A DNA stretch of 64,000 nucleotides from Candidatus Aalborgicola danicus (GCA_016703945.1 JADJBC010000041.1:131558-195557), one strand, 5' to 3'. Shown: positions 1-51,506, counted from the first letter of the stretch. Notes: generated by a model from the sequence alone, not told the origin. Numbers and translations are program-made.

Positions 1-1068
1 CAGGGTCAACAGAGCCAGCACCAACACCACCGGCACAAACACGGCGCTGACCTTGTCTACCAGCCGCTGAATGGGTGCCTTGGCGGCCTGGGCATCTTCC
101 ACCAGACGGATGATGCGGGCCAGCACCGTGTCCACACCCACGGCGGTCACCTGCAGCACCACGCGACCTTCGCCGTTGATGGAGCCGCCGGTGAGCTTGT
201 CGCCAACGTCCTTGCGCACCGGCAAAGGTTCGCCGGTCAGCATGGACTCGTCGACCTGGGTCTGTCCCTCACTCAGGGTGCCGTCCACCGGAAAACGTTC
301 ACCGGGTTTGACGGCGATGTGATCGCCCACCATCACATCCGCCACGGGTACATCGACCTCCCCATCGCGTCCCAGCCAGTGCGCCACATCGGGGCGCAGC
401 GCGTGCAAGGAACGGATGGCGGCCGTGGTCTGGCGTTTGGCACGTGCCTCCAGCCACTTGCCCAGCAGCACCAGCGTGATGACCACGGCCGAGCCTTCAA
501 AGTACAGGTGCACCATGGCGCCGTCGGGTGCGGTCAACCACAGCCATACCGACAAGGCCCAGCCAGCGGTGGTGCCGATGGACACCAGCAGGTCCATATT
601 GCCGCTGCGCGCCAGCAGGGCATGCCAGCCGGCCTTGTAAAAGCGCGCACCGAGGATGAACTGCACAGGCGTGGCCAGCACAAACTGCAGCCAGGCCGGC
701 AGCATCCAGTGCTGGCCGAAGAGGTCGCCCACCATCGGCAGCGCCAGCGGTGCCGACAACAACGCGCCGATGGCGACCGGGCCAAAGCCGGCCCAGGGCG
801 AAACGGATTCCAGCGCGTCGACCTGTGCCGGGGTGCGCACCTCATAACCTGCATCGCGCACGGCGCGGCGCAGGCGGGCTGGCATCTGGTCGGCATCTGC
901 GTAGGTGATGCGCGCCGACTCGGTGGCCAGGTTGACAGTGGCTTCCTGCACGCCCGGCACTTTTTTCAAGGCCTTTTCAACACGGCCCACACACGAGGCA
1001 CAGGTCATGCCGCCGACGGCAATGTCCAGACTGAGGTTGGCGGCAGAGGGGGAGGTTATGGTGTCCAT
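1..1068 (-). CDS. copA: Copper-translocating P-type ATPase, N-terminal part (runs off left edge)
   Basis: Minus-strand translation from ATG at 1068 gives [50 protein letters not shown]..., an HMA domain with GMTCxxC. It continues in frame to ...[20 protein letters not shown] at position 1. It is absent from the ORF track because no stop lies in the window. Confidence 0.9.
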
Positions 1069-1075
1069 GGGGCAG

Positions 1076-1106
1076 AGCCTAAACCTTCTCACCATGGAAA
1101 GGTCAA
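1076..1106 (-). promoter_or_regulatory. Candidate MerR/CueR-type promoter-operator for copA (19-bp spacer)
   Basis: On the minus strand: TTGACC (1106-1101), a 19-nt spacer containing the imperfect dyad ACCTTTCCATGGTGAGAAGGT, then TAGGCT. The layout resembles the over-long-spacer promoters used by MerR-family activators. Confidence 0.45.
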
Positions 1107-1133
1107 GGGTTCTCCACAGATTTCACAAGTGGC

Positions 1134-1164
1134 TTGACTCTCCCACCATGGTAAGGTTCACACT
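1134..1164 (+). promoter_or_regulatory. Candidate MerR/CueR-type promoter-operator for copZ-cueR
   Basis: TTGACT (1134-1139), a 19-nt spacer centred on CCATGG as in the divergent site, then CACACT. It lies 30 nt upstream of the copZ start. The dyad is weaker than at the copA site. Confidence 0.35.
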
Positions 1165-1195
1165 ACCGGTTTTGCACACCAACCAAGGAATCACC

Positions 1196-1393
1196 ATGAA
1201 CCAGACTTTTACCGTTACCGGCATGACCTGCGGCCACTGCGAAAAGGCCGTCACGCGCGCGCTGCAGCAGGTGGACCCGCAAGCGCAAGTGGTGATTGAC
1301 CGGGCCCAAAACCGCGTGCAGGTCGAATCCACGCAAGCGCGCGAAGCCCTGGCGCAGGCCATTGCAGAAGAAGGTTATGCCGTCGCCAGCTGA
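1196..1393 (+). CDS. copZ: Heavy-metal-associated (HMA) copper chaperone
   Basis: MNQTFTVTGMTCGHCEKAVTRALQQVD... has the MTCxHC metal-binding motif and is 65 aa long. An AAGGAA RBS lies 8 nt upstream. The 905 start of the tracked ORF is a shadow extension. Confidence 0.9.
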   Translation: MNQTFTVTGMTCGHCEKAVTRALQQVDPQAQVVIDRAQNRVQVESTQAREALAQAIAEEGYAVAS

Positions 1394-1859
1394 AGCCCGC
1401 CTTCCCGGAGACAGCAAGCCTGCGACTGGCGAAAGCACAGGGTCTCTGGTCAATATCGGCCAGGCGGCAAAGTTGTCTGGTGTGTCGGCCAAGATGCTGC
1501 GCCATTACGAGTCGCTGGGCCTGCTGGGCCAGGTGGTGCGCACCGACAGTGGCTACCGCCAGTACACGTCGACAGACGTCAACACCCTGCGTTTCATCAA
1601 GCGCAGCCGCGACCTGGGTTTCTCAATGGCCGAGATTGCGGAGCTGGTGAACCTGTGGCAAGACCGCAGCCGCGCCAGTGCCAGCGTCAAACACATCGCA
1701 CAGAAGCATCTGGACGAACTCGGCACCCGTATTGCTGCCATGCAGGCCATGCAGCGCTCGTTACAAGACCTGTTGCAACACTGCCATGGGGATGCACGCC
1801 CGGACTGTCCGATTCTGGATGACCTGGCGGGGGGGCAGTCCCCTGCGCCCTGCCATTGA
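1377..1859 (+). CDS. cueR: MerR-family Cu(I)-responsive transcriptional regulator
   Basis: VNIGQAAKLSGVSAKMLRHYESLGLL...RTDSGYRQY is the MerR HTH. The C-terminal CHGDARPDCPI matches the CueR metal-binding loop (C-x7-C). The start is uncertain: the ATG at 1377 has a GAAGAAGG RBS and overlaps the copZ end. Confidence 0.85.
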   Translation: MPSPAEARLPGDSKPATGESTGSLVNIGQAAKLSGVSAKMLRHYESLGLLGQVVRTDSGYRQYTSTDVNTLRFIKRSRDLGFSMAEIAELVNLWQDRSRASASVKHIAQKHLDELGTRIAAMQAMQRSLQDLLQHCHGDARPDCPILDDLAGGQSPAPCH

Positions 1860-1875
1860 AGGCTGCCGCCAGTCG

Positions 1876-4032
1876 TCAGTTGCAGCCAGACTGGGCCTTC
1901 CAGATCGCCAGATCACCCAGATTCACCACCCCTTTGCCGGACGACGCGGCGAAGTAGTACAGGCTGTCATCAACACTGGAGCTGGCGAGGAAGGTATTGG
2001 TGGCGGGGTAGTAGCGGTAGTAATAGGGTGCCAGATCACCGGCCGCAGCACCGGCCAGCGGAAACGCACTGGGCACGCTACGCTCGCCCCACGCAAAAAT
2101 GCAATCCGACAGGCTGCCACTGGTCACCATGGTGAGCGGGCGGCTGGGCTCCTCAATGGGCATGCCGTCGCGCCAGAGCTGGGCGCGCAACTTGATGGGT
2201 CGTGCACTATTGGGCGGGAGTGTCAGCGCGGGTGCGGTGTTGGCACTGGTGTCGGCTATGGGCAGGCTTTGAATGAAACCGGTGCCACTTTGGAACCAGC
2301 GAACTTGCAAGCCCGTATTGGCCCCGGCCACGCTGGCGGCAGTGTGGCTGGAAACCATGCGCTTCTGGGTGTTTTGGGCGATGCGCGTGGCCGCCGGAGC
2401 CAAACCGCTGGCGTCTATGGCCTGCGAGATGGACAGGGTGTAGAACCCGCCCGCTGTGGGATTCGGCGGCCTGAGTACATAGAAGCTACGCCAGGTTTCA
2501 CTGTCAGACGACGTGCGTTGGGCGCAGCCTGTGCCAGTCACCCGAAGCAGTGGCCCCACCGCCGTGCCATTGGCATAGACGCCATTGAGCTGGAACTGCC
2601 CGCCCTCGCTGCACAGTTTCAGCGTTGCGGTACCCGCCAATGGCGTAGCCAGTGTGATGGAGTCCACATCATCCGCCTGTGCGGCGACGGGCTCGCTCAA
2701 TTGACCCCGGATGGTGAAGGGCAGCGCCGCCACCTTGGTCCCCGCATTCAGATCGTTCGAGTAGTCACCACCTGCGCTGTCGGCTTCCTTGACGACCACG
2801 TTGTCCACCAGGCCGTCGCAGTCATTGTCCAGACCATCGGCAATTTCGGTTTTCCCCGGTGCGATGGCTGCGTTGTCGTCGCGGCAATCCACAAATCGGT
2901 TGGAGCCGTCGTTGTCGCTGTCCAGACAACCCGGGAATGGCGTTGGATAGGCTGCAGCTCCGGCCAGACCCGGGCCCTGGTACCACTTGAATTGGCTGGC
3001 AATACAGCGCGTGTCCTTCTGTGTCACTTTGGCTAATGACAGCAGCATGGCATCACTGGTCTCTTGCGGCGTGTCATAAAACACACCCGCCAGCGAGCTC
3101 GACACGCCGTCCGCCAGCCAGGCCTTGACTTGCGCGCCTGTCATTTGCTGCGCCACCACAGTAAAGAAGCTGCCGACCAGGTAACGGGCCTCGGCGCTGG
3201 CGCAGGCTGGCACATCGTTGGGTGCAGCGGCGCAGTCGGCCCAGGTCAGCGCCGGGTTGGACAGAAAGGGCTTCCAATAGGTGCCCAACCAGTCGCTCAG
3301 CACCACATTCGGCCGTTTGATTTGCGAGCCGCCGTCTGCCATCTTGGTCTGCACCCGCGCATACCACTCCTGCAACACCGTGGTCCAGTTGTGGCTGGGG
3401 TCGGGGCCATAGGCCCAGGCCGACATCACATCAAAGTTGTGCGCCAGTTCGTGCACAAAAACATTGGTCAGAATATCGTCGTCCAGGCCGATTTCATCCA
3501 GCACGGCATTGCTGTATTCGGTGGAATCCCCCGGGGCAAAGGCCAGACCATAGAAGTTGCTCGGTTCATTGGGCAATATGGCAAATACCTGTTTGCCCCG
3601 TGGGTCACTTTGCAGCGTCGGAGCCCAGCCCAGCAATTCCTTGTAACTGGCGTACAGCATGTCCAGCCGGTCTACCAGGGTTTGGATCCGCACCGCATTC
3701 AGCTTGGCGCTTCTGGGGTGCACCGTGGGGATCAAAAGGGTGACGGCAGCGCCGTCGTAACGCGAGACCGTGAAGGTTTGCACTGGTGTGCTGAAGGTGG
3801 TGTAGCTGATGGTTTCGCCCCAGCACGGCGAACAGGCGGTGGTACCAAAGTTGATGCGGGACGCAGCACTGGTACGGGTCTGAACGTGCGCCTGGGGCTG
3901 TCGCACGTAGTCCGGAGTAGCGCCAGGTTGCGGCAACCGGGGTACGGCGTTGGCACCAGCCACGCCACAGACCAGCAGAAATGCCATGCAAAAGATGGGC
4001 AGTACCCGACGGATGGCTTGGCAAGTGGGCAT
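1876..4032 (-). CDS. Secreted HExxH metalloprotease-like protein with MopE-type DNDCDG metal-binding motif
   Basis: 718 aa. N-terminal signal peptide (MAFLLVCGVAGANA). VHELAHNFD is an HExxH zincin motif. DSDNDGSNRFVDCRDDNAAIAPGKTEIADGLDNDCDGLVDN matches the Cys/Asp-rich repeat seen in MopE-like copper-binding proteins. Confidence 0.75.
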   Translation of the reverse strand: MPTCQAIRRVLPIFCMAFLLVCGVAGANAVPRLPQPGATPDYVRQPQAHVQTRTSAASRINFGTTACSPCWGETISYTTFSTPVQTFTVSRYDGAAVTLLIPTVHPRSAKLNAVRIQTLVDRLDMLYASYKELLGWAPTLQSDPRGKQVFAILPNEPSNFYGLAFAPGDSTEYSNAVLDEIGLDDDILTNVFVHELAHNFDVMSAWAYGPDPSHNWTTVLQEWYARVQTKMADGGSQIKRPNVVLSDWLGTYWKPFLSNPALTWADCAAAPNDVPACASAEARYLVGSFFTVVAQQMTGAQVKAWLADGVSSSLAGVFYDTPQETSDAMLLSLAKVTQKDTRCIASQFKWYQGPGLAGAAAYPTPFPGCLDSDNDGSNRFVDCRDDNAAIAPGKTEIADGLDNDCDGLVDNVVVKEADSAGGDYSNDLNAGTKVAALPFTIRGQLSEPVAAQADDVDSITLATPLAGTATLKLCSEGGQFQLNGVYANGTAVGPLLRVTGTGCAQRTSSDSETWRSFYVLRPPNPTAGGFYTLSISQAIDASGLAPAATRIAQNTQKRMVSSHTAASVAGANTGLQVRWFQSGTGFIQSLPIADTSANTAPALTLPPNSARPIKLRAQLWRDGMPIEEPSRPLTMVTSGSLSDCIFAWGERSVPSAFPLAGAAAGDLAPYYYRYYPATNTFLASSSVDDSLYYFAASSGKGVVNLGDLAIWKAQSGCN

Positions 4033-4854: not shown

Positions 4855-6060
4855 ATGTCACCATCCCCCTTGATCCAACTGAAGGAAGCCCCCGCCACGG
4901 ACGGCGGCGCGCCCAATTTGCAGGCATTCCTTGAACTGGGATTTCGCCCGCTGTACCTGGCCGGTATCTCCTGGGCGCTGATCGCCGTTGCCCTGTGGAT
5001 CTACGCACCGTCGGTTTTGACCGGCCCCTTGCAGGGCATCGCCTGGCATGCCCACGAGATGTTGTGGGGCTTTATTGCCACCATTGCTGTGGGCTTTCTG
5101 ATGACGGCGGGCAGCAACTGGACCGGCATCAACCCGCTGCAGGGCCGCGCCCTGGGTGCCGTGTGTGGCCTGTGGCTACTGGCGCGCGTAGGCTTTCTGG
5201 TCAATAGCCGTACTGCTTTTTGGATCGCCATGGCCTGCGAGCTGGCCTTCTTCGGGTTGGCGGCACTGGCCATGATGCGCGCGGTTTACCGCTCCAAAAA
5301 CACGCGCAATTACGCCGTGCCCTGGCTGCTGGTCGGGTTGGCCGTCGGCGACGCACTGTACCTGCTGGCGGCGCTGGCAGGTGACTACGCGCTGCTGATG
5401 GTGCGTTTTAATGCGGCGCTGGTGGTCATGGCCTTGATTGCGCTACTGATCGGGCGCCGGGTGATTCCCTTTTTTGCCATGCGCGCTGTACCAGGGCTGG
5501 ACATTCCCAAACACACGACCTCCGGCCAGGTGCAATTGGGGGCCTGCACGGTGGCGGCGCTCAGCCAACTGGCCGGTTGGCCGGTGCTGACGGCTCTGGC
5601 TCTGGGTTTGGCCGGTCTGCTGGCAGCCGTCCAGGTACTGAGCTGGAAACCGCTGGCGGTGCGGCACAACCCGCTGCTGTGGATTTTGTACGCCGGTTAT
5701 GGCGGTATCGCGCTGGGCCTGTTGAGCGCCGCGCTGGCCAGTGCCGGGGTGGCGCTGCCACGGGTCCTGCCGGTGCACCTGATTGCCATGGCCGGCTTCT
5801 CCGTGCTGATCATTGGCATGGTGACCCGCACATCCCTGGGCCACCTGGGGCGGCCCTTGGCAACCGACGCCAGCATGCGCGCCAGTTATTGGCTGATGCT
5901 GCTGGCAGCGGCCTTGCGCCTGGCTGCCATGGCCGACACCGCCTGGGTCAGTGGTCTTTTGTACCTGGCGGCTGGTGCATGGGTGGGGGGCCTTGGCCCT
6001 GTTTCTGTGGCGTTTTGCACCGATGCTGGTTCGCCCCCGCCTCTAAGGTTGCAGCGCTGA
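4855..6060 (+). CDS. nnrS: NnrS family heme-copper membrane protein (NO-stress associated)
   Basis: 401 aa polytopic membrane protein with the NnrS signature region GIAWHAHEMLWGF...TAGSNWTG. Confidence 0.9.
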   Translation: MSPSPLIQLKEAPATDGGAPNLQAFLELGFRPLYLAGISWALIAVALWIYAPSVLTGPLQGIAWHAHEMLWGFIATIAVGFLMTAGSNWTGINPLQGRALGAVCGLWLLARVGFLVNSRTAFWIAMACELAFFGLAALAMMRAVYRSKNTRNYAVPWLLVGLAVGDALYLLAALAGDYALLMVRFNAALVVMALIALLIGRRVIPFFAMRAVPGLDIPKHTTSGQVQLGACTVAALSQLAGWPVLTALALGLAGLLAAVQVLSWKPLAVRHNPLLWILYAGYGGIALGLLSAALASAGVALPRVLPVHLIAMAGFSVLIIGMVTRTSLGHLGRPLATDASMRASYWLMLLAAALRLAAMADTAWVSGLLYLAAGAWVGGLGPVSVAFCTDAGSPPPLRLQR

Positions 6061-44722: not shown

Positions 44723-45499
44723 ATGTCCAAGTTGATCTTTGTGACTGGCGCGTCCAGTGGTATCGGACAGGCGCTCGCTTGGCGCTATTACCAAGACGGT
44801 TATGACTTGGCGCTGGTTGCGCGGCGTACGCAGGACATGCAGGCCTGGGCCACAAAGCAGGGTCTGGCCGAGTCCCGTTACCAGATTTATGGCGCAGATG
44901 TGGCTGTGATTGACAGCATCGTGGCCGCTGCACGCTTGTGCCTTGAGCGTCAGGGAGTACCCGATGTGGTGATTGCCAATGCAGGTGTCAGTATTGGTGT
45001 GGATACTGCTGTGCGGGGCGACTTGGACGTCCTGGTCCAAACCTTCGCGATTAACAATGTCGGACTGGCCGCCACGTTCCATGCCTTTGTGGAGCCCATG
45101 GTGCAACGTGGTTCCGGTGCGCTGGTGGGCATTGGCAGTGTGGCGGGAATACGTGGATTGCCCGGACACGGTGCTTATTGCGCCAGCAAAGCTGCTGTAA
45201 TCGGCTACTGCGAAAGCCTGCGCGGTGAACTGCGCCATGCCGGTGTCAAGGTCGTCACGATTTGCCCTGGCTATATTGACACGCCACTTACGCAAAAGAA
45301 CCGGTACGCCATGCCCTTTTTGATGCAGCCCGAGGTGTTCGCCGAAAAGGCCTTCAGGGCGATTGGGGCTGGTGCCAGTTACCGCGTGATTCCGTGGCAA
45401 ATGGGATGGGTAGCCAAGGGCTTGCGCTTGTTACCAAACTGGTTGTTTGACAAAGTCCTGTCTGGCCGCCCACGCAAGCGGCGCGCCAATGAAGTGTGA
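44723..45499 (+). CDS. SDR-family oxidoreductase
   Basis: TGASSGIGQALA, NAG, and YCASKAA catalytic motif. Confidence 0.85.
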   Translation: MSKLIFVTGASSGIGQALAWRYYQDGYDLALVARRTQDMQAWATKQGLAESRYQIYGADVAVIDSIVAAARLCLERQGVPDVVIANAGVSIGVDTAVRGDLDVLVQTFAINNVGLAATFHAFVEPMVQRGSGALVGIGSVAGIRGLPGHGAYCASKAAVIGYCESLRGELRHAGVKVVTICPGYIDTPLTQKNRYAMPFLMQPEVFAEKAFRAIGAGASYRVIPWQMGWVAKGLRLLPNWLFDKVLSGRPRKRRANEV

Positions 45500-45546
45500 T
45501 AGGCCACCAGTGAAAGCCCTCACCGCTTTGGGTTGAGTGGGACAAC

Positions 45547-45571
45547 AAAAAAGGACCCGAAGGTCCTTTTT
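45547..45571. terminator. Bidirectional intrinsic terminator
   Basis: AAAAAAGGACC-cgaa-GGTCCTTTTT between the convergent SDR and RRM genes. Confidence 0.7.
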
Positions 45572-45597
45572 GATTGGGGTTAATCCCCAGTCGGTGC

Positions 45598-46017
45598 TTA
45601 GTAGCTGTTGCGGCCACCGCCGTAACCACCACCACCGCCGCCGCCACCACTGCGGCCGCCGCCGGCGCCACCACCGTAGCCGCCACCACCGCCGTAACCA
45701 CCACCGCCGCTACGGCCGCCGCCAGCACCGCCGCCAAAGCCGCCGCCGCCAGTGCGGGGAGGACGAGCTTCCATCGGACGTGCTTCGTTCACCACGAGAC
45801 CGCGGCCACCGAATTGTTGACCATTCATGCCACCGATAGCGGCTTGTGCTTCTGCATCGCTGCCCATTTCCACAAAGCCGAAGCCTTTGGAACGGCCCGT
45901 GTCACGTTCCATCATGACTTTGGCGCTGGAAACGGAACCGTAGGCTGCAAACGCTTGTTGCAAGTCTTCATCACGGAAAGAATAGGGCAGGTTGCCCACG
46001 TAAAGTTTGTTGCCCAT
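45598..46017 (-). CDS. RRM-domain RNA-binding protein with Gly-rich tail
   Basis: MGNKLYVGNLPYSFRDEDLQQAF (RNP2), KGFGFVEM (RNP1), then a GGGGYGGG tail. Confidence 0.85.
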   Translation of the reverse strand: MGNKLYVGNLPYSFRDEDLQQAFAAYGSVSSAKVMMERDTGRSKGFGFVEMGSDAEAQAAIGGMNGQQFGGRGLVVNEARPMEARPPRTGGGGFGGGAGGGRSGGGGYGGGGGYGGGAGGGRSGGGGGGGGYGGGRNSY

Positions 46018-46188
46018 GTAAGGACTCCTCAAAATAACTCTCAAAACGCGATGGTGTCCAAACCCGCAATCAACAAACCAATGAAGACTTAAAGCAGACG
46101 CGAAACTGGTAAATCACCGCAAACCAGTAATACCGAAATTTCGGCAATACTGCGCCATTATGCTGGGTTTTCAGACGTTCGCCAAATT

Positions 46189-46416
46189 TTATTTTGGCAA
46201 AACCCCGTCCTGCTGCGAATCGTCAGCGGCGCGGTAATTGCGCCACTGCTGCATGCTGTTGCGCATGCTCAGTATTTGGCGCTCGAAGCGGGGGCAGGTG
46301 TCGCAGATGAGCATGTGCATGCGCAATGCCAGACGGTCCGGCAGGCCGAGGGCGCGGTCTTCCCGAGCGACCAGCAGGGCGGCGACTTCGCGGCAGGTTC
46401 GGTTGAAAGGAATCAC
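46189..46416 (-). CDS. zf-HC2 anti-sigma factor (short)
   Basis: HMLICDTC is the H-x3-C-x2-C motif. The GTG at 46416 overlaps the sigma-factor stop (GTGA). Confidence 0.65.
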   Translation of the reverse strand: MIPFNRTCREVAALLVAREDRALGLPDRLALRMHMLICDTCPRFERQILSMRNSMQQWRNYRAADDSQQDGVLPK

Positions 46417-46985
46417 GTGGCTTCGGGTTTCATATACCAATGGAGCTCCAGGCACTCCCGCAAACGCAGGCGGGCCCGGTGGAGCTGAACGTACAGGTTG
46501 GTCGGAGTCAGCAGCAACTCCTTACAGATTTCTTCACTGGAAAGCTCCAGCCATTCCCGCATCAGAAACAAGCGACCCTGGGTGGCGGGTAGTTTGTTGA
46601 CGCAGGCTTCGAGGATGGCAAAAAACTGTTGGCTGCTGGCCTGTTGTTCCGGGTTTCCCCAGTCTGCCGGCGCTTCAACGAAATGGCCGTCGGTGTGAAA
46701 GGCGATGGATTCGAGCGGGTCCGCTTGCGCGTCCTCCGATGTTTCGAGGCCGCTGACTTCGCGGTGGTGATGGCGCAGGGCGTCAACGACTTTGTGTTTC
46801 AGAATACCAACCAGCCAGGTCTTGAGCTGCGAGCGGTTACCAAACGATTGCGGTTTGGCCAGTGCCGCCACCACGGTTTCTGATACGGCGTCTTCCGCCC
46901 AGGCGTCGTTGCGCAATTGGAGGCGTGCGAATTTGAGCAGGTAGTCCTGCAGCGCAACGATTTGTTGTTCGAAACTGCTCATCGG
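46413..46985 (-). CDS. ECF (sigma-70 group IV) RNA polymerase sigma factor
   Basis: Region 2 (FARLQLRNDAWAEDAVSETVVAAL) and region 4 (LPATQGRLFLMREWLELSSEEICKELLLTPTNLYVQLHRARLRLR). Confidence 0.85.
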   Translation of the reverse strand, partial: PMSSFEQQIVALQDYLLKFARLQLRNDAWAEDAVSETVVAALAKPQSFGNRSQLKTWLVGILKHKVVDALRHHHREVSGLETSEDAQADPLESIAFHTDGHFVEAPADWGNPEQQASSQQFFAILEACVNKLPATQGRLFLMREWLELSSEEICKELLLTPTNLYVQLHRARLRLRECLELHWYMKPEAT

Positions 46986-47101
46986 GTCCCATTCAATGGC
47001 GCACACGGGTCGCTCGTGAAAAGTGCGATGGTAAACCCGGAGACGAGATAATTTGAATGGTCTGTAAGAAAGCGACCCTGCACCAGACTAAACCGTAACC
47101 A

Positions 47102-47128
47102 GCAACAAGGTGCAATCTGTGTGCGTCT
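47102..47128 (+). promoter_or_regulatory. Weak candidate ECF-type promoter for the DUF2282 operon
   Basis: GCAAC, 17 nt, then CGTCT, about 42 nt upstream of the ATG. It is pattern-only and low information. Confidence 0.25.
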
Positions 47129-47169
47129 CCGCTGGTTTTACTTTAACTGTCCCTTTTAGGAGTTTTCCA

Positions 47170-47442
47170 ATGAACCAACGTGCCATGATCGCTGCCACGG
47201 CAGCCGCTGTGATGTCCCTGTCGATGGTGTCGGTGCCAGCAGCCGCCCAGGAAAAAGAGAAATGTTTTGGTATTGCCAAGGCGGGTCAAAACGATTGCGC
47301 CAGCGTGAATGGTGCCCACTCCTGCGCCGGCCAGTCCAAGGTCGACATGGACAAAATGGAATGGAAATATGTGGCCAAGGGCAGTTGCAAGAGCATGAAG
47401 GGTCTGAGCCTGGATGAAGCCAAGGCCGCAAAAAAGGCGTAA
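47170..47442 (+). CDS. DUF2282 Cys-rich secreted peptide (BufA/GigP-like RiPP precursor)
   Basis: Sec signal peptide MNQRAMIAATAAAVMSLSMVSVPAAA, then QEKEKCFGIAKAGQNDCASVNGAHSCAGQSKVDMDKMEWKYVAKGSCKSM with four conserved Cys. AGGAG RBS. Confidence 0.85.
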   Translation: MNQRAMIAATAAAVMSLSMVSVPAAAQEKEKCFGIAKAGQNDCASVNGAHSCAGQSKVDMDKMEWKYVAKGSCKSMKGLSLDEAKAAKKA

Positions 47443-47472
47443 CGCCCTGGATTGCGTGTATCGCGCCTTTTT
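47431..47472 (+). terminator. Possible attenuator hairpin between precursor and MNIO genes
   Basis: AAAAAGGCG (spanning the last codons and stop) pairs with CGCCTTTTT 24 nt downstream. A T5 run follows. Not energy-evaluated. Confidence 0.3.
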
Positions 47473-47487
47473 CTTGAGTTTGAGGCC

Positions 47488-48456
47488 ATGACACGCCTGA
47501 CCGTGGAAGATGCCGATACGGCAGCCGCCAGCAACGAGAACGAGGCAAATGTGGCGAACGTGGGGAATGTGGGTATCGGCTGGCGGCATCCCCATTACGC
47601 CGAGTTGCTGGAGCGCCTACCAGCCTTGGATTTTCTCGAAGTGCACTCCGAGAATTTCTTTGCGCCGGGCGGAGCGTCCCAGGCCGTGCTGGAGCAAGGG
47701 CGTGCCCACTATCCCGTCAGCCTGCATGGCGTCGGTCTGTCACTGGGCTCGGCCGCGGGCCTGGATGATTGGCATCTGGACCAGTTGCAGCGTCTGGTGC
47801 AACACATTGACCCGGTGCGGGTGAGTGACCATGCCTCCTTTGCGCGCGGCGTTTTCAAAGGCGCCGTCGTGCATGCGGCTGATCTGCTGCCGATCCCGTT
47901 CAGTTCCGAGGCGCTCGACGTGTTGTGCGCCAATGTCAGCCGGGTGCAGGACCGTCTGCAGCGACGGTTCATGGTGGAAAACCTGTCTGCCTATCTGCGC
48001 TGGAAGTTGCCAGACACGGAACGCGTCTGGGCGGAAACCGAATTCCTGACCACCCTGGCCCGCCGTACCGGCTGTCAGCTGTTGGTGGATGTGAACAATA
48101 TTTATGTCAACGCCTTGAACGCGCAGTTGCGCGAAGGCAGTGTGTGTGATCCGGTGCAAGCCTGCCGCGAATGGCTGGATGCCATTCCTGCTGACATCGT
48201 GGGCGAAATGCATCTGGCAGGGCATTGCCGTGTCAGCGACGAACACGGTGACATCGCTATCGACGACCATGGCAGCCAGGTCTGTGACCCGGTCTGGGAC
48301 TTGTACCGACAGGCGGTGTCGCGTTTTGGCGCCGTGCCGACGTTGCTGGAATGGGACACCGATGTGCCAACGCTGGACGTCTTGCTAGACGAAGTGCGGC
48401 GTGCCCGCGGAGTCTGCGCCGAAGTGGCGGCCCTGTCGGTTGGGGTGCCAGCATGA
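47488..48456 (+). CDS. DUF692 / MNIO-family (multinuclear non-heme iron oxidative) enzyme, BufB/GigA-like
   Basis: [10 protein letters not shown]...[11 protein letters not shown]...[12 protein letters not shown]...RVSDHASF...ENLSAY...[12 protein letters not shown]...EMHLAGH...IDDHGS...TLLEWD are UPF0276/DUF692 hallmark blocks. Confidence 0.88.
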
Positions 48457-49250
48457 GCAACCTGGCCCGGCAGCAGCAGGCCCTGCTGGATGCCCTGTTG
48501 GCATGGCCCCCAAAAAATGCTATAAAAAACATAGCTGCTTACGCAATTGATTCGAGGGCTAGAGGCCTAAAAGCCTATCAAACCCATGGACATATGCTGG
48601 CCCAACGCGCGTTGCAAGCAGCCTACCCGGTGGTGGCGCAGATGCTGGGGGAGGAGAGTTTTGCCGACCTGGCCCGTGCCCTGTGGCACGCCCAACCGCC
48701 GGTGCGTGGTGACATCGCGTGCTGGGGCAGTGGTTTGCCGGCCTTTTTGCAAACCAGTGAACAGTTGCAGGACGAGCCATATTTGCCGGATGTGGCGCGG
48801 GTGGAATGGGGGTTGCACCAGTGCGCTGGGGCGTCTGACCGTGCTGCGGACTTGTCGACATTGGCCTTGCTGACCACGGACGACCCCGCCAGCCTCACTC
48901 TGGTGCTGGCGCCGGGCTGTGCAGTGGTGCGCAGTGCCTGGCCTATTGCCAGCATTCTTGGTGCCCACCTGGACGGCCAGCCCTCGTTGCAAGAGGCCGG
49001 GGCTCAACTGAGGGCCGGCGTGGCGCAGGATGTGGTGGTCTGGCGCGCCGGGTTGAAACCCCGCTTTCGGCTGGCGGTAGATGGCGAGGTCGGGGCGGTG
49101 ATGGCGTTGTTGCGTGGAGAGTCCCTGGACCAGGCGTTATCACTGGCGCCTCAACTCGATTTCGCTCTCTGGTTGCCCATGGCCGTGCAAAGCGGTTTGC
49201 TTGTGTCGGTCCAGGTTTTACCAGGTGGACTGGGGAGCACCGCCGCTTGA
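48453..49250 (+). CDS. DUF2063 protein (BufC/GigB-like MNIO partner)
   Basis: [15 protein letters not shown]..., ...[24 protein letters not shown]...[18 protein letters not shown] overlap with the DUF692 gene. Confidence 0.8.
48518..48567 (+). repeat. Family A repeat, copy 7, in frame inside the DUF2063 gene
   Basis: tgctataaaaaacatagctgcttacgcaattgattcgagggctagaggcc is translated as [16 protein letters not shown], in the same repeat frame as the mnmE copy. Confidence 0.8.
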
Positions 49251-49301
49251 TATGGGTGCACCATTGCGCATCCCAACGGCCGCACAGCCCAACGCCTTGC
49301 C

Positions 49302-51506
49302 ATGGAACCTACCCCAACCCATCACACGCCGGTGACGCCTAGCACCACAATGCCGGCTGATTTGCCAGGCATGGCAGAGCAAGCGTGGCAGCGTTGGTGG
49401 CCGCAACGCATAGGCTGGCGGCTGGCGCTGGGGTTTGGTGTGCTGGTGGTCTTGATGCTGGTGGCATTGGCGCAAGCGACCTACCAGATCCGCAACATCA
49501 CCGGTGTCACGCAACGCTTTGCGACCGGTGACATGCAACGTTTGCTGAGGGTGCAGGCCTTGTCCATGCAGACCGAAGGGGTTGGCAACGCGTTGATTCG
49601 GCTAATCAATGCCCCACGTGACAGCCGCGTTGCGGAATATGCCGATGTGGACGAACGCAATCGGCGCATCGACGGCGCGATTGAGTCGCTTGTCCAAGAC
49701 ATGCGGGGCTCTGACCAAGAGGAAAACCTTAAGCGTTTGGTCGAATGCCGTGCGGTCTACGCGGCGGCCTTTATTGCTACAGCCGACGAGATTGAGGCTG
49801 ATAACTCTTCGCAAGCCTGGCGTTTGCTCAACGACCGTGTCAATCCCGCATTAAAAACCATGCTGGTGGAATCGAACGCCTTGTTGCAGAGTGAGCGGCA
49901 ACGGATCGAGTCGCAACTGGACGACGCCCAACGCCAATTCGAGCGCGCTGCGCTGTGGGTGGCGGGTCTGTCGCTGCTGGCTGTGGTGTTGGCCACGTGG
50001 CTGGGGGTACGCACCACCCGCAGCGTGGTGGGCCCGCTGGCGCAGCTCGAAGTGGCGGCCCAGCGCATTGCCGAAGGCGACTACAGCAGCCGTGTGTCCA
50101 CCACCCGCACACAAGAGGTTGACCGCGTTGGCCAGGCCCTGAACACCATGACCGACGCCGTGGCGCAACGTGAACGCGACATCGAACACCTAGCCTTCCA
50201 CGACCCGCTGACCGGTTTGCCCAACCGCACGGCGCTGTTCCAGCCCCAGCAAGCCAGCGCAACCGAACCCCATTGCCTGGCGCTGATGGACTTGGCCCGC
50301 CTCAAGGCCATCAACGAAACCTTGGGCTACACCACCGGCGATACGCTGATCCAGCAAACGGCGCAGCGCGCCAGCCTGGCACTGCAGCAGGCTGCGGCCG
50401 ATGGATTGATAGGCCCGGACCCCATCGTGGCGCGCCTGTCCGGTGGCACCTTTGCTGCGATCTTTTCCGCCCCCAACCGGGCGACTGTGGAGGCTCTACG
50501 CGAACGCATCGAGCAAGCCATGGGCGCGCCGGTGCAATGCAGCGGCCATAGTGTGGATTTGAGCTTGACGTATGGCCTGGCGGACTCTGGCGACCGGGCA
50601 CAGGGTAGCAAAGCATTGCCGGTGGACACGCTGCTGCGCAATGCCGAGGTGGCCCTGCACAGCGCCAAGCGGGCGGCCGTGGGCTTTGCCTGGCACAGCG
50701 AGGCGCAAGAGGCGGCGCGTTTGAGCCACCTGAGTCTGCTGTCGGATTTGCGCCAGGCGGTGGCCACCTCCCAATTGCAGATGTGGTTGCAACCCAAGTT
50801 CTCACTGGCCACGGGCAGGGCCGTCGGCACCGAGGCCCTGGTGCGCTGGCAGCACCCGACACGCGGCTTTGTGTCGCCAGCCGAGTTTGTGCCCTTTGCC
50901 GAACAGGCCGGCTACATCACCTTGGTCACCGAATGGATGCTGCAGCAGGCCCTGCGCACGCTGGCCGTCTGGGCACCCACGCACCCCGAGCTGAGCATTG
51001 CGGTCAACGTCAGCACGCGCGATCTGCAACACAAAGGCTTTGCCGAGCGTGTGGCCCGCATGATTGAGGCCAGTGGTGTGCCCGCCAAACGCCTGCGCCT
51101 GGAGATCACCGAGAGTGGCCTGATGGACGACCCCACGCACAGTGTGGCCCTGCTGTACGAGCTGCGCGAGATCGGTACACCGCTGTCGATTGACGACTTC
51201 GGCACCGGCTATTCGTCGTTGGCCTACCTGCAAAAGTTGCCGGTCAGCGAGCTCAAAATTGACCGCAGTTTCGTTGACAAGCTGGACCAGTCTCCTGGCA
51301 CCCAAAAGCTGGTGCGCGCCATGACCGAGATGGGCCATGGCCTGGACTTGATGGTGACGGCCGAAGGTGTGGAGACCGAGGCCGAGCGCGAAACCATCAC
51401 GCGCCTGGGCTGTGATGTGATGCAGGGTTATCTGGCCAGCAAGCCACTGCATGGGGACAAGCTGCAAGCGTGGTTTGATGCGCTGCCGGTGCATGCCGCG
51501 TCCTAG
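49302..51506 (+). CDS. Membrane sensor with HAMP, degenerate GGDEF and EAL domains (c-di-GMP phosphodiesterase type)
   Basis: TM plus helical sensor. HAMP (VGPLAQLEVAAQRIAEGDY). GGDEF position reads RLSGGTF. EAL blocks EALVRW, LEITES, DDFGTGYSSL, KIDRSF and AEGVET are intact. Confidence 0.88.
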   Translation: MEPTPTHHTPVTPSTTMPADLPGMAEQAWQRWWPQRIGWRLALGFGVLVVLMLVALAQATYQIRNITGVTQRFATGDMQRLLRVQALSMQTEGVGNALIRLINAPRDSRVAEYADVDERNRRIDGAIESLVQDMRGSDQEENLKRLVECRAVYAAAFIATADEIEADNSSQAWRLLNDRVNPALKTMLVESNALLQSERQRIESQLDDAQRQFERAALWVAGLSLLAVVLATWLGVRTTRSVVGPLAQLEVAAQRIAEGDYSSRVSTTRTQEVDRVGQALNTMTDAVAQRERDIEHLAFHDPLTGLPNRTALFQPQQASATEPHCLALMDLARLKAINETLGYTTGDTLIQQTAQRASLALQQAAADGLIGPDPIVARLSGGTFAAIFSAPNRATVEALRERIEQAMGAPVQCSGHSVDLSLTYGLADSGDRAQGSKALPVDTLLRNAEVALHSAKRAAVGFAWHSEAQEAARLSHLSLLSDLRQAVATSQLQMWLQPKFSLATGRAVGTEALVRWQHPTRGFVSPAEFVPFAEQAGYITLVTEWMLQQALRTLAVWAPTHPELSIAVNVSTRDLQHKGFAERVARMIEASGVPAKRLRLEITESGLMDDPTHSVALLYELREIGTPLSIDDFGTGYSSLAYLQKLPVSELKIDRSFVDKLDQSPGTQKLVRAMTEMGHGLDLMVTAEGVETEAERETITRLGCDVMQGYLASKPLHGDKLQAWFDALPVHAAS

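What the first reader, a model, noticed from the sequence alone, without database searches (positions are those of the whole stretch)
46189..49250. ECF sigma/anti-sigma + DUF2282 Cys-rich precursor + DUF692 (MNIO) + DUF2063: a bufferin/gig-type metallophore RiPP cluster
Seen in sequence: a 90-aa protein has a Sec signal peptide and four Cys in the pattern EKC-FGIAKAGQND-C...HS-C-AGQ...GS-C. It is followed by a DUF692 enzyme and a translationally coupled (ATGA) DUF2063 protein. A divergent ECF sigma / zf-HC2 anti-sigma pair (GTGA overlap) sits upstream. Established knowledge: DUF692 proteins are multinuclear non-heme iron oxidative (MNIO, MbnB-like) RiPP-tailoring enzymes. DUF2282-DUF692-DUF2063(-DoxX) operons are the gold/copper-induced gig operon of Cupriavidus. 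They were characterised in 2024 as bufferins, periplasmic copper-binding peptides whose Cys residues become 5-thiooxazoles. Inference: this locus makes such a peptide, probably under ECF control and linked to metal stress. The window also holds copA/copZ/cueR and a MopE-like protein. It is the most system-like cluster in the window, and very few members have been studied.
Basis: partly seen in the sequence, partly recalled or inferred. Interest (0 to 1): 0.8.

Follow-up and report, generated by a model that had tools for sequence, protein, structure and literature searches.

The report
Copper-binding peptide (bufferin) gene cluster
This is a real but ordinary example of a recently described, very widespread bacterial gene cluster that makes a small secreted copper-binding peptide; it is switched on by its own dedicated sigma factor, and its control region has two conserved features I did not find described.

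Summary
Window 46189-49250 encodes a divergent ECF sigma / short zinc-finger anti-sigma pair and a bufA-bufB-bufC operon: a DUF2282/BufA1 precursor, an MNIO maturase above NCBIfam's BufB cut-off, and a DUF2063 partner. All HMM hits pass curated cut-offs. The host is a Rhodoferax-like Comamonadaceae bacterium, and the locus is syntenic in dozens of relatives. The bufferin interpretation is supported, with corrections. There is no DoxX gene, although relatives have one. By analogy with Caulobacter Buf1, only the two central Cys (C43, C52) should become thiooxazoles, and C32-C73 should form a disulfide. The regulator is not the SigF/NrsF (ECF16) pair described for Buf1 clusters. It is a soluble RsrA/MseR-like ZAS anti-sigma with an ECF13-type sigma, so the likely signal is cytoplasmic thiol-reactive stress. 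New details: a promoter GTAAGAA-N15-GACTAA upstream of bufA matches the Neisseria sigma-E consensus. A second copy lies inside the sigma gene, just upstream of the anti-sigma gene, and is held by synonymous-site conservation. A covarying hairpin starts 5 nt after the -10 element of the bufA promoter. Verdict: a new member of a known kind, of modest interest.

The parts
46189..46440 (-). Anti-sigma factor. Soluble ZAS type, probably 83 aa from TTG 46440 (GGAG Shine-Dalgarno). Alternative starts are GTG 46455 (88 aa) and GTG 46416 (75 aa, GTGA overlap with the sigma stop).
   Evidence: zf-HC2 and NF052368 antisigmaE are above cut-off. The motif is Cys16...His42-x3-Cys46-x2-Cys49, with the same 26-residue Cys-to-His spacing as MseR (C4/H30/C34/C37) and RsrA (PMC2893595). 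There is no hydrophobic segment: maximum Kyte-Doolittle over 19 residues is 0.69. Relatives are called at 83 or 75 aa.
46413..46982 (-). ECF sigma factor, 189 aa from ATG 46982. The longest ORF starts at GTG 47006.
   Evidence: Sigma70_r2 and r4_2; NF009173 284 bits (cut-off 255); TIGR02943 213 bits (cut-off 162). More than 6000 homologues; the closest are named Rhodoferax.
46498..46525 (-). Predicted sigma-dependent promoter inside the sigma coding sequence, driving the anti-sigma gene: GTAAGGAG-N14-GACCAA.
   Evidence: It is one of only two strict motif matches in the 64 kb window. The motif is present inside the sigma gene of relatives, including ones only 44-52% identical (39 motif matches in that position). 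Synonymous sites are held fixed: Cys153 is TGT in 34/35, Lys is AAG in 33/35, Glu-position third base is A in 30/35 (GAA 29), and codon 160 is NCG in 33/35 whether it encodes P, S or A. The gene-wide mean third-position entropy is 1.26 bits, and TGT makes up only 29% of Cys codons in window genes.
47064..47091 (+). Predicted sigma-dependent promoter of bufABC: -35 GTAAGAA (47064-47070), 15-nt spacer, -10 GACTAA (47086-47091).
   Evidence: Conserved upstream of bufA in 40 related loci. It matches the N. meningitidis sigma-E consensus, -35 GTAAGGTT and -10 TCTAA (PMC2893595). The motif occurs nowhere else in 817 kb of loci apart from the sigma-internal site and a redoxin gene.
47097..47137 (+). 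Conserved leader hairpin: outer arms AACCAGC (47097-47103) and GCTGGTT (47131-47137), followed by a T-rich tail. It starts 5 nt after the -10 element.
   Evidence: Mean MFE z-score is -2.3 over 46 loci, against -0.02 for upstream control segments. On an unfitted MAFFT alignment of 38 loci, 85% of cells are paired, 6 of 7 pairs show double changes, and 0/500 shuffles reach the covariation score; slid controls give 15-45% paired. The pattern is unique in the window and confined to bufA leaders in the loci. There is no Rfam match.
47170..47442 (+). bufA: a 90-aa Buf1-type bufferin precursor with a Sec signal peptide (residues 1-26, predicted cleavage AAA|QE) and a 64-aa core.
   Evidence: PF10048 at 5e-25. 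The four Cys (C32, C43, C52, C73) are invariant in 67 homologues. Their spacings are 11/9/21, against 11/8/21 in Caulobacter Buf1 (PMC11626156). N-terminal hydrophobic segment.
47454..47475 (+). Weak terminator-like hairpin plus T-run between bufA and bufB. It may be a leaky terminator; membership in the system is uncertain.
   Evidence: Consensus scan. It is not conserved in the closest relatives, but strong 8-11 bp hairpins with T-runs sit at this position in more distant bufferin loci (L048-L051, L055, L067, L070).
47488..48456 (+). bufB: the MNIO (DUF692) maturase.
   Evidence: PF05114 at 7.8e-93; NF050167 MNIO_BufB 314.7 bits (cut-off 310). PDB 3bww at 5.6e-30. Invariant H53, H80, H115, E164, D201, N204, H242, D259, H261 and E288 in 80 homologues.
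48453..49250 (+). bufC: the DUF2063 partner protein, translationally coupled to bufB (ATGA).
   Evidence: PF09836 at 1.2e-13. AlphaFold2 model with pLDDT 82.9. Best PDB fold matches are TglI, the partner of MNIO TglH (8hci_A), and NGO1945 (3dee).

Best explanation
The locus is a minimal Buf1-type bufferin biosynthetic cluster (bufA, bufB, bufC, no DoxX) together with its own regulator pair.

Proposed mechanism:
1. In unstressed cells, the ECF sigma (ECF13/ECF293-like) is held by a small cytoplasmic zinc-binding anti-sigma of the RsrA/MseR/HrsE type.
2. Thiol-reactive stress (oxidants, or possibly thiophilic Cu(I)/Au) attacks the Zn-Cys site, and the sigma is released.
3. The sigma transcribes bufABC from the promoter GTAAGAA-N15-GACTAA at 47064-47091.
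4. It also transcribes the anti-sigma gene from a second copy of that promoter embedded in the 3' end of its own coding sequence. This gives negative feedback without positive autoregulation.
5. The bufA mRNA begins with a conserved stem-loop. I think this most likely protects the 5' end and stabilises the message; attenuation is the alternative.
6. In the cytoplasm, the MNIO BufB with its partner BufC oxidises the two central Cys of the precursor (C43, C52) to 5-thiooxazoles.
7. The Sec system exports the peptide and the signal peptide is removed at AAA|QE.
8. C32-C73 form a disulfide, and the 64-residue product buffers copper in the periplasm.

Shown here: gene identities, architecture, conservation of the catalytic and Cys columns, the two promoter-like motifs and their exclusive distribution, and covariation in the hairpin.

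Inferred from characterised homologues: the chemistry, export, copper binding, the signal sensed, and what the hairpin does.
For: - Family membership passes curated cut-offs.
- Cys and metal-ligand columns are invariant.
- The BufC fold matches MNIO partner proteins.
- Synteny SDR - RRM - (anti-sigma, sigma) - bufABC holds across Rhodoferax, Polaromonas and Ramlibacter.
- The promoter motif has 85 occurrences in 817 kb: 40 upstream of bufA, 39 inside sigma, 6 upstream of a TlpA-like redoxin gene and none elsewhere. There are only two in the window, both in this locus.
- The motif matches the published Neisseria sigma-E consensus, and the anti-sigma Cys/His spacing is identical to MseR and RsrA (PMC2893595).
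- Sigmas with ZAS anti-sigmas are known to drive DUF692/DUF2063/DoxX clusters in Neisseria and Haemophilus (PMC2893595, PMC7907618).
- Synonymous-site conservation marks the internal promoter.
- In five betaproteobacterial loci (L049, L051, L055, L060, L065) where sigma, anti-sigma and bufABC are co-directional, my pattern finds no motif directly upstream of bufA but does find the sigma-internal one.
- Hairpin statistics and covariation.
- Buf1 chemistry, copper affinity and the dispensability of DoxX come from PMC11626156.
Against: - There are no expression, mass-spectrometry or metal-binding data for this organism.
- The BufB score is only just above the equivalog cut-off (314.7 against 310).
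- Ten related loci keep bufABC and the promoter motif but have no adjacent sigma pair, so the sigma could be encoded elsewhere, or another factor could read the motif.
- In Cupriavidus, sigma control of gig could not be demonstrated, although that sigma belongs to a different ECF group (PMC13492112).
- Neisseria MseR did not respond to the oxidants tested (PMC2893595), so the signal is uncertain.
- The window's own hairpin is only moderately stable: z = -0.7 on 81 nt and -1.5 on 52 nt.
- The related loci are phylogenetically related, so the shuffle statistics overstate independence.
- The transcription start sites are predicted, not mapped.
Confidence: 0.82

Rival explanations
1. The genes and chemistry are the same, but the physiological role is defence against oxidative or hypohalite (thiol) stress, or against another metal, rather than copper buffering. 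The cluster would then be one arm of an MseR/HrsE-type oxidative-stress regulon.
For: The regulator pair is the cytoplasmic ZAS type. Its Haemophilus homologue is induced by HOCl, H2O2 and paraquat and co-regulates msrAB (PMC7907618). Polaromonas relatives put a periplasmic TlpA-like thiol-disulfide oxidoreductase under the same promoter motif. The copper-efflux locus in the window has its own CueR-like regulator 45 kb away.
Against: Both characterised bufferins protect against copper and bind Cu(I) and Cu(II) very tightly (PMC11626156). gig operons are induced by Cu and Au (PMC10304878). Thiophilic metals could themselves trigger a ZAS switch, so the two roles are not exclusive.
Confidence: 0.2
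2. The leader stem-loop is a transcription attenuator (an intrinsic terminator that limits read-through into bufABC) rather than a 5'-end stabiliser.
For: The 3' arm is followed by a T-rich stretch in most loci, for example GCTGGTTTTACTTT in the window and CTGGTTGTTTAT in L004 and L008. A conserved TTTAAC(C)TG box downstream partly resembles the 5' arm and could in principle compete for the 3' arm.
Against: The T-tracts are interrupted and short. The terminator scan did not call this hairpin. The hairpin starts within a few nucleotides of the predicted start site, which leaves no room for an upstream anti-terminator. Loop length varies from about 12 to 47 nt.
Confidence: 0.3
3. The sigma/anti-sigma pair is merely adjacent and does not control bufABC. 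The conserved GTAAG...GACTAA element would be read by another factor.
For: Ten relatives have bufABC plus the motif but no adjacent sigma pair. RpoQ control of gig could not be shown in Cupriavidus (PMC13492112).
Against: The motif is found only at bufA, inside this sigma gene and at one accessory gene. It matches the consensus of the homologous Neisseria sigma (PMC2893595). In co-directional loci, the sigma-internal copy is the only candidate promoter for bufA.
Confidence: 0.07
4. The older annotation is right: DUF2282 is an integral membrane protein, DUF692 is a sugar-isomerase-like enzyme, and DUF2063 is a DNA-binding regulator, with no RiPP involved.
For: Pfam's legacy descriptions read 'predicted integral membrane protein' and 'putative DNA-binding domain'. 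NGO1945 was proposed to be a transcriptional regulator (PMC2954202).
Against: This view is superseded by in vitro reconstitution of Buf1 with BufB and BufC (PMC11626156). The only hydrophobic segment of the precursor is its N-terminal signal peptide. The BufC model's best match is the MNIO partner protein TglI.
Confidence: 0.02

Closest known systems
Caulobacter vibrioides buf1 (CCNA_03363-03366) bufferin 1 cluster with SigF/NrsF (PMC11626156, PMC3511200)
   Same: A DUF2282 precursor with a Sec signal peptide and four Cys at nearly the same spacing, with the NDC and SCA contexts conserved. An MNIO BufB and a DUF2063 BufC. An ECF sigma encoded nearby. The -35 element begins GTAA.
   Different: There is no DoxX (bufD) here. 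The anti-sigma is a soluble peptide of about 80 aa of the ZAS type, not the multi-pass membrane protein NrsF. The promoter is GTAAGAA-N15-GACTAA rather than GTAACC-N16-CGAA. CysII-CysIII spacing is 9 rather than 8.
Cupriavidus metallidurans gigPABT with divergent rpoQ-rsqA, and Sinorhizobium meliloti SMb20527-20530 with rpoE7-ecfR7 (PMC10304878, PMC13492112, PMC6180224)
   Same: A betaproteobacterial or alphaproteobacterial bufABC(D) operon transcribed divergently from an ECF sigma / anti-sigma pair. It is linked to metal stress.
   Different: Those sigmas are ECF16 with membrane-bound anti-sigmas, and those operons include a DoxX-like gene (gigT). RpoE7 activates its own promoter, whereas here no motif precedes the sigma gene.
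Neisseria meningitidis sigma-E operon NMB2140-2145 with MseR, and Haemophilus influenzae RpoE2/HrsE with the hvf cluster (PMC2893595, PMC3240639, PMC7907618, PMC11252979)
   Same: An ECF13-type sigma with a short cytoplasmic ZAS anti-sigma (identical Cys/His spacing) controlling a DUF692 + DUF2063 (+ DoxX) cluster. The promoter consensus is GTAAGGTT / TCTAA.
   Different: The precursor there is the EGKCG-repeat (oxazolin/HvfA) type, not DUF2282. In Neisseria, sigma and anti-sigma lie at the end of the same autoregulated operon. Here they are divergent, and only the anti-sigma appears to have the sigma-dependent promoter.
Methanobactin MbnA/MbnB/MbnC
   Same: An MNIO enzyme plus a partner protein that modifies Cys of a ribosomal peptide into a copper-binding heterocycle with sulfur.
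   Different: Methanobactins are small, leader-cleaved, secreted copper-scavenging peptides with oxazolone-thioamide groups. The MbnB model scores far below its cut-off here (28.7 bits against 325).

Membership tests
Buf1-type bufferin biosynthetic cluster | Precursor belongs to DUF2282/BufA1 (PF10048) | tested here: met
   87.6 bits against a gathering score of 22.4, E = 5e-25. Relatives are labelled PF10048:BufA1.
Buf1-type bufferin biosynthetic cluster | Four conserved Cys (CysI-IV) in the core | tested here: met
   C32, C43, C52 and C73 are invariant in 67 homologues. Spacings are 11/9/21, against 11/8/21 in Caulobacter Buf1 (PMC11626156).
Buf1-type bufferin biosynthetic cluster | N-terminal Sec signal peptide on the precursor | tested here: met
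   MNQR, then a hydrophobic stretch (Kyte-Doolittle over 19 residues 1.72 at residues 6-24), then PAAA|QE. This rests on inspection only; no signal-peptide predictor was available.
Buf1-type bufferin biosynthetic cluster | Adjacent MNIO (DUF692) enzyme of the BufB type with its metal ligands intact | tested here: met
   PF05114 at 7.8e-93; NF050167 314.7 bits against a cut-off of 310. His, Asp, Glu and Asn columns are invariant. Assigning these columns to the iron ligands rests on my recollection of MbnB structures.
Buf1-type bufferin biosynthetic cluster | DUF2063 partner protein (BufC) next to the MNIO | tested here: met
   PF09836 51.6 bits against 27.2. ATGA coupling with bufB. The model matches TglI and NGO1945.
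Buf1-type bufferin biosynthetic cluster | DoxX (BufD) gene. It is frequent in the core but dispensable for modification and function in Caulobacter. | tested here: not met
   bufC stops at 49250 and a GGDEF-EAL gene starts at 49302. There is no DoxX homologue anywhere in the window. DoxX is present after bufC in L006, L022 and L053. buf2 of Caulobacter also lacks it (PMC11626156), so this is not disqualifying.
Buf1-type bufferin biosynthetic cluster | Cys converted to 5-thiooxazole; the product binds copper | not testable with these tools
   Needs LC-MS/NMR and metal-binding assays.
ECF13/ECF293-type sigma with cytoplasmic ZAS anti-sigma (RsrA/MseR/HrsE-like) | Anti-sigma gene directly downstream of the sigma gene, carrying H-x3-C-x2-C plus an upstream Cys 26 residues before the His | tested here: met
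   Cys16, His42, Cys46 and Cys49 in the 83-aa form, compared with C4/H30/C34/C37 in MseR and C11/H37/C41/C44 in RsrA (PMC2893595). NF052368 is above cut-off.
ECF13/ECF293-type sigma with cytoplasmic ZAS anti-sigma (RsrA/MseR/HrsE-like) | Anti-sigma is small and has no transmembrane segment | tested here: met
   75-88 aa; maximum 19-residue hydropathy 0.69.
ECF13/ECF293-type sigma with cytoplasmic ZAS anti-sigma (RsrA/MseR/HrsE-like) | Target promoters resemble GTAAGGTT ... TCTAA | tested here: met
   47064-47091 (+) and 46498-46525 (-). Distribution across the loci.
ECF13/ECF293-type sigma with cytoplasmic ZAS anti-sigma (RsrA/MseR/HrsE-like) | Sigma groups phylogenetically with ECF13/ECF293 | not tested
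   Only indirect evidence: TIGR02943/PRK12520 hits and the anti-sigma and promoter types. No ECF-group classifier or reference sequences were available.
ECF13/ECF293-type sigma with cytoplasmic ZAS anti-sigma (RsrA/MseR/HrsE-like) | Release of sigma by thiol oxidation or zinc loss | not testable with these tools
   Needs biochemistry or reporter assays.
ECF16 SigF/NrsF regulation (the type reported for Buf1 clusters) | NrsF/DUF1109 multi-pass membrane anti-sigma | tested here: not met
   The anti-sigma hits zf-HC2 and antisigmaE only, and it is soluble.
ECF16 SigF/NrsF regulation (the type reported for Buf1 clusters) | Promoter GTAACC-N16-CGAA | tested here: not met
   The conserved element is GTAAG[A/G]-...-GAC[T/C]AA. 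Only the GTAA of the -35 element is shared.

The most novel reading that the evidence does not exclude
The regulatory wiring is a distinct, previously undescribed design for bufferin clusters. The ECF sigma carries a copy of its own target promoter inside its coding sequence, maintained by selection on synonymous sites, so that it drives its anti-sigma but not itself (pure negative feedback). In co-directional relatives, the same sigma-internal promoter drives the whole bufferin operon. The precursor mRNA carries a structurally conserved 5'-terminal hairpin that sets precursor dosage. I found no description of either element in the bufferin and ECF papers I read.
Probability: 0.5. Interest if true: 0.45.

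Novelty: new member of a known kind. Interest (0 to 1): 0.33.

Why it matters
Bufferins are among the largest RiPP families and a widespread copper defence, yet only a handful have been studied, and their regulation is known only for the SigF/NrsF type. This locus adds nothing new to the chemistry. It does offer a compact three-gene example without DoxX, in an environmental Comamonadaceae lineage, that is wired to a cytoplasmic redox-type anti-sigma. That links the Buf1 family to the regulatory logic already known for the Neisseria and Haemophilus clusters. The promoter motif, the promoter embedded in the sigma gene and the covarying leader hairpin are concrete, testable regulatory elements. 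They could help predict when such clusters are expressed and how precursor and enzyme levels are balanced.

Tried and rejected
- Rfam scan of 45400-49400 at E <= 1 found no known RNA family for the leader.
- A per-sequence test for a 7-mer complement was too weak to be informative: mean null p was 0.41. I replaced it with MFE z-scores and alignment covariation.
- I looked for the Cupriavidus gig locus in the plasmid collection to compare RpoQ/RsqA directly. The Cupriavidus oxalaticus hit (L081) is an unannotated DUF692/DUF2063 pair in which my ORF listing shows no obvious bufA or sigma, and the Ralstonia hits have bufABCD without a sigma. Neither was useful for the regulator comparison.
- A conserved leaky terminator after bufA is strong in distant loci but absent from the close relatives, so it is not a conserved feature of this lineage.
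- The leader hairpin does not follow the same promoter motif at the TlpA-like gene, so it is specific to bufA and not part of the promoter.
- A dispersed repeat explanation for the hairpin fails, because the pattern is unique in the window.
- A palindromic protein operator is unlikely, because the distance between the arms varies from about 12 to 47 nt.
- No sigma-70-like promoter and no copy of the ECF motif was found upstream of the sigma gene, so the sigma's own promoter remains unidentified.
- Sequence search of BufC against PDB found nothing. Only the fold comparison linked it to TglI and NGO1945.

Full report
**1. What is there**

On the minus strand:
- An ECF sigma factor at 46413-46982 (longest ORF to 47006). 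It has Sigma70_r2 and r4_2, scores 284 bits on NF009173 (cut-off 255) and 213 bits on TIGR02943 (cut-off 162).
- A short anti-sigma at 46189-46440/46455, overlapping the sigma's end. It scores 23.4 bits on zf-HC2 (cut-off 22.2) and 58.6 bits on NF052368 'antisigmaE' (cut-off 50).

On the plus strand, 187 bp away:
- bufA (47170-47442, PF10048 DUF2282, E = 5e-25).
- bufB (47488-48456, PF05114 E = 7.8e-93; NF050167 'MNIO family bufferin maturase' 314.7 bits, cut-off 310).
- bufC (48453-49250, PF09836 DUF2063, E = 1.2e-13).

The GTGA and ATGA overlaps and the Cys pattern are as described. These are not chance features.

**2. Organism and conservation**

The sigma has more than 6000 homologues. The closest (81-99% identity) are mostly unnamed metagenome sequences, and those that carry a name are called Rhodoferax, Burkholderiales or Pseudomonadota.

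A scan of one genome per species with BufB returned 80 loci. Across Rhodoferax, Polaromonas, Ramlibacter and related MAGs, the order SDR - RRM protein - (anti-sigma, sigma) - bufA - bufB - bufC is conserved.

Three variations are informative:
- A DoxX gene (Pfam-verified in L006, L022 and L053) appears to follow bufC in many relatives. It is absent from the window and its nearest relatives. There, bufC is followed after 51 bp by a 4HB_MCP-HAMP-GGDEF-EAL gene.
- Ten loci keep bufABC but lack the adjacent sigma pair.
- Polaromonas-type loci insert a periplasmic TlpA/redoxin-like CxxC protein between sigma and bufA.
- In addition, in five more distant betaproteobacterial loci (L049, L051, L055, L060, L065), sigma, anti-sigma and bufABC are all co-directional.

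**3. The biosynthetic genes**

- *BufA.* It has a positively charged N-terminus, a hydrophobic stretch and PAAA|QE. Its four Cys (C32, C43, C52, C73) are invariant in 67 homologues, as are K31, G34, N41, D42, A53 and G54. Cys spacings are 11/9/21, against 11/8/21 in Caulobacter Buf1. In that peptide, CysII and CysIII become 5-thiooxazoles and CysI-CysIV form a disulfide (PMC11626156). By analogy, C43 and C52 are the modified residues here.
- *BufB.* It aligns to the DUF692 structure 3bww (E = 5.6e-30). It keeps H53, H80, H115, E164, D201, N204, H242, D259, H261 and E288, which are invariant in 80 homologues. Identifying these as the iron ligands rests on my recollection of MbnB structures.
- *BufC.* It has no sequence match in PDB. 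An AlphaFold2 model (pLDDT 82.9) finds TglI, the partner of the MNIO TglH (8hci_A, E = 2e-4), and NGO1945, the founding DUF2063 structure (3dee, TM-score 0.63 on the target), as its only significant fold matches.
- *Annotation status.* The precomputed annotations, from a newer Pfam release than the one scanned, already name PF10048 'BufA1' and PF09836 'HvfC_N'. UniRef names a Rhodoferax relative 'HvfC/BufC family'.

**4. The regulator is not the type described for Buf1 clusters**

The bufferin papers report sigma factors with NrsF anti-sigmas in Buf1 clusters (PMC12452194). Examples are SigF/NrsF in Caulobacter (promoter GTAACC-N16-CGAA; PMC3511200), RpoE7/EcfR7 in Sinorhizobium (PMC6180224) and RpoQ with membrane-bound RsqA in Cupriavidus (PMC13492112). 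All of these are ECF16.

Here the anti-sigma is a peptide of 75-88 aa with no hydrophobic segment. It carries a ZAS motif with an upstream Cys at exactly the spacing found in MseR of N. meningitidis and RsrA of Streptomyces (PMC2893595). That class is called ECF13 in PMC7907618 and was merged into ECF293 in PMC7826278. It is cytoplasmic and, where known, thiol-redox-sensitive. In Neisseria and Haemophilus it controls msrAB and a DUF692/DUF2063/DoxX cluster.

So the pairing of this regulator class with an MNIO cluster is known, but with the EGKCG/oxazolin-type precursor rather than the DUF2282 type. I could not run an ECF-group classifier, so the group assignment is indirect.

**5. Promoters**

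Upstream regions of bufA from the related loci share GTAAG(A/G)A-N15/16-GAC(T/C)AA. In the window this lies at 47064-47091. It matches the meningococcal sigma-E consensus, -35 GTAAGGTT and -10 TCTAA (PMC2893595).

- A strict pattern has only two matches in the 64 kb window, both in this locus.
- A slightly relaxed pattern has 85 matches in 817 kb of related loci: 40 upstream of bufA, 39 inside the sigma gene, 6 upstream of the TlpA-like gene and none elsewhere.
- The sigma-internal copy (46498-46525, minus strand) overlaps codons 153-162 (CKELLLTPTN).
- Across 35 orthologues, the third positions that fall in the motif are nearly fixed: TGT 34/35, AAG 33/35, third-base A at the Glu position 30/35 (GAA 29), and NCG 33/35 even when the residue is P, S or A.
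- By contrast, the mean third-position entropy of the gene is 1.26 bits, and the non-motif third positions of the neighbouring codons vary freely.
- TGT is the minority Cys codon in this genome, at 29%.
- The motif persists in sigma homologues only 44-52% identical.
- In the five co-directional loci named in section 2, my pattern finds no motif directly upstream of bufA, and the sigma-internal copy is the only one present.

I read this as a sigma-dependent promoter for the anti-sigma gene embedded in the sigma ORF. No copy precedes the sigma gene in any locus, so the circuit looks like negative feedback without positive autoregulation. This differs from the autoregulated Neisseria operon. This is inference from sequence; no start sites have been mapped.

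**6. Leader hairpin**

Five nucleotides after the -10 element, a stem-loop begins: AACCAGC ... GCTGGTT at 47097-47137, followed by a T-rich tail.

- Over 46 loci, the first 52 nt of the leader fold better than dinucleotide shuffles (mean z = -2.3). The 52 nt upstream of the promoter do not (mean z = -0.02; Mann-Whitney p = 1e-11).
- On a plain MAFFT alignment of 38 loci (A1), the seven outer pairs are 85% paired. Six have changes on both sides (AACCAC/GTGGTT, AACCC/GGGTT, AGCCAG/CTGGC, AATCAG/CTGATT and others).
- No shuffle out of 500 reaches the covariation score, and sliding the partner by 1-3 columns drops pairing to 15-45%.
- The sequences are related, so these numbers overstate independence. 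The compensatory variants do, however, occur in several genera.
- Loop length ranges from about 12 to 47 nt, which argues against a dimeric protein operator.
- The element has no Rfam match. It is unique in the window, confined to bufA leaders in the loci, and absent after the same promoter at the TlpA-like gene.
- More distant loci (L048, L050, L053, L079) have a different hairpin sequence at the same position.
- The window's own copy is only moderately stable: -13.8 to -16.1 kcal/mol, z = -0.7 to -1.5.

Because the hairpin sits at the predicted 5' end, I favour a 5'-terminal stabiliser. An attenuator is the main alternative.

**7. How it most likely works**

The sigma is sequestered by the Zn-bound anti-sigma. 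Thiol-reactive stress, or possibly thiophilic metals, releases it. It then transcribes bufABC and, from the internal promoter, more anti-sigma. BufB with BufC converts C43 and C52 of the precursor to thiooxazoles in the cytoplasm. Sec exports the peptide, and the signal peptide is cleaved. C32-C73 oxidise, and the 64-residue peptide binds copper in the periplasm.

The chemistry, the export, the copper affinity and the dispensability of DoxX are taken from Caulobacter Buf1 (PMC11626156). The thiooxazole assignment has been re-examined and supported in later preprints (abstracts listed). None of this is shown for this organism.

**8. Verdict**

This is a genuine Buf1-type bufferin cluster in a minimal three-gene form, in a family with thousands of members that is now curated in Pfam and NCBIfam. 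It is a new member of a known kind.

The modest added value is regulatory: the ZAS-type control of a DUF2282 cluster, the promoter embedded in the sigma gene, and the covarying leader hairpin. I did not find either of the last two described in the papers I read. Interest is about 0.33.

Noticed in passing
window 49302-51506 (+): A 734-aa 4HB_MCP-HAMP-GGDEF-EAL protein starts 51 bp after bufC, with no terminator-like hairpin in the gap. The gene follows bufC (or bufC plus a DoxX-sized ORF) in Rhodoferax relatives, including L046, which lacks the sigma pair. Read-through from the buf promoter, and so a link to c-di-GMP signalling, is possible but untested.
   Followed up: partly
window 45598-46044 (-): An RRM-type RNA-binding protein with a long Gly-rich tail (RRM_1, E = 2e-21) lies immediately downstream of the anti-sigma gene. 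It is syntenic with bufABC in nearly all Comamonadaceae loci, even those without the sigma pair. Any connection with the conserved leader hairpin is pure speculation.
   Followed up: no
L014 4991-5563, L026 4905-5444, L032 4795-5446, L033 4879-5484, L038 2218-2874, L047 4794-5471: In these relatives (Polaromonas, a Candidatus Skiveiella and unclassified Burkholderiaceae/Betaproteobacteria MAGs), a periplasmic TlpA/redoxin-like CxxC protein (WSTxCAVCRD; AhpC-TSA and Redoxin hits on the L034 homologue) sits between sigma and bufA. It carries its own copy of the GTAAG...GACNAA promoter. This makes it a likely accessory member of the regulon that the bufferin surveys do not list.
   Followed up: partly
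window 47140-47152 (+): A conserved box, ACTTTAAC(C)TGTCC (TTTAAC(C)TG across genera), lies between the hairpin and the AGGAG ribosome-binding site (47158-47162). It resembles the hairpin's 5' arm and could in principle pair with the 3' arm. Its function is unexplained.
   Followed up: no
L048-L051, L055, L067, L070 (between bufA and bufB); window 47454-47475: Distant bufferin loci have strong 8-11 bp GC-rich hairpins with T-runs right after bufA. This suggests a leaky terminator that raises the precursor:enzyme ratio. The window has only a weak 5-bp version, and its close relatives have none.
   Followed up: partly
window 1-4032: A copper locus at the window start. It comprises a P-type ATPase with a GMTCxxC domain (minus strand, starting at 1068 and running off the window), a CopZ-like 65-aa protein (1196-1393 +), a CueR-like MerR regulator (about 1452-1859 +; Pfam MerR hits) and a 718-aa protein with a MopE copper-binding motif (1876-4032 -; PF11617, E = 1e-8). 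NnrS follows at 4855-6060.
   Followed up: partly
L004, L007, L010, L015, L016, L020, L023, L024, L027, L046: These relatives keep bufABC, and most also keep the promoter motif and hairpin, but have no sigma/anti-sigma pair next to the operon. Either the sigma is encoded elsewhere or it has been lost. This could not be resolved from the fetched flanks.
   Followed up: no
window 47488-47570 (+): BufB has a low-complexity N-terminal extension of about 28 residues ([25 protein letters not shown]) before the conserved GIGWR start of the MNIO domain. It is not conserved in relatives: tblastn matches begin at about residue 23-29. The true start codon may lie further downstream.
   Followed up: no
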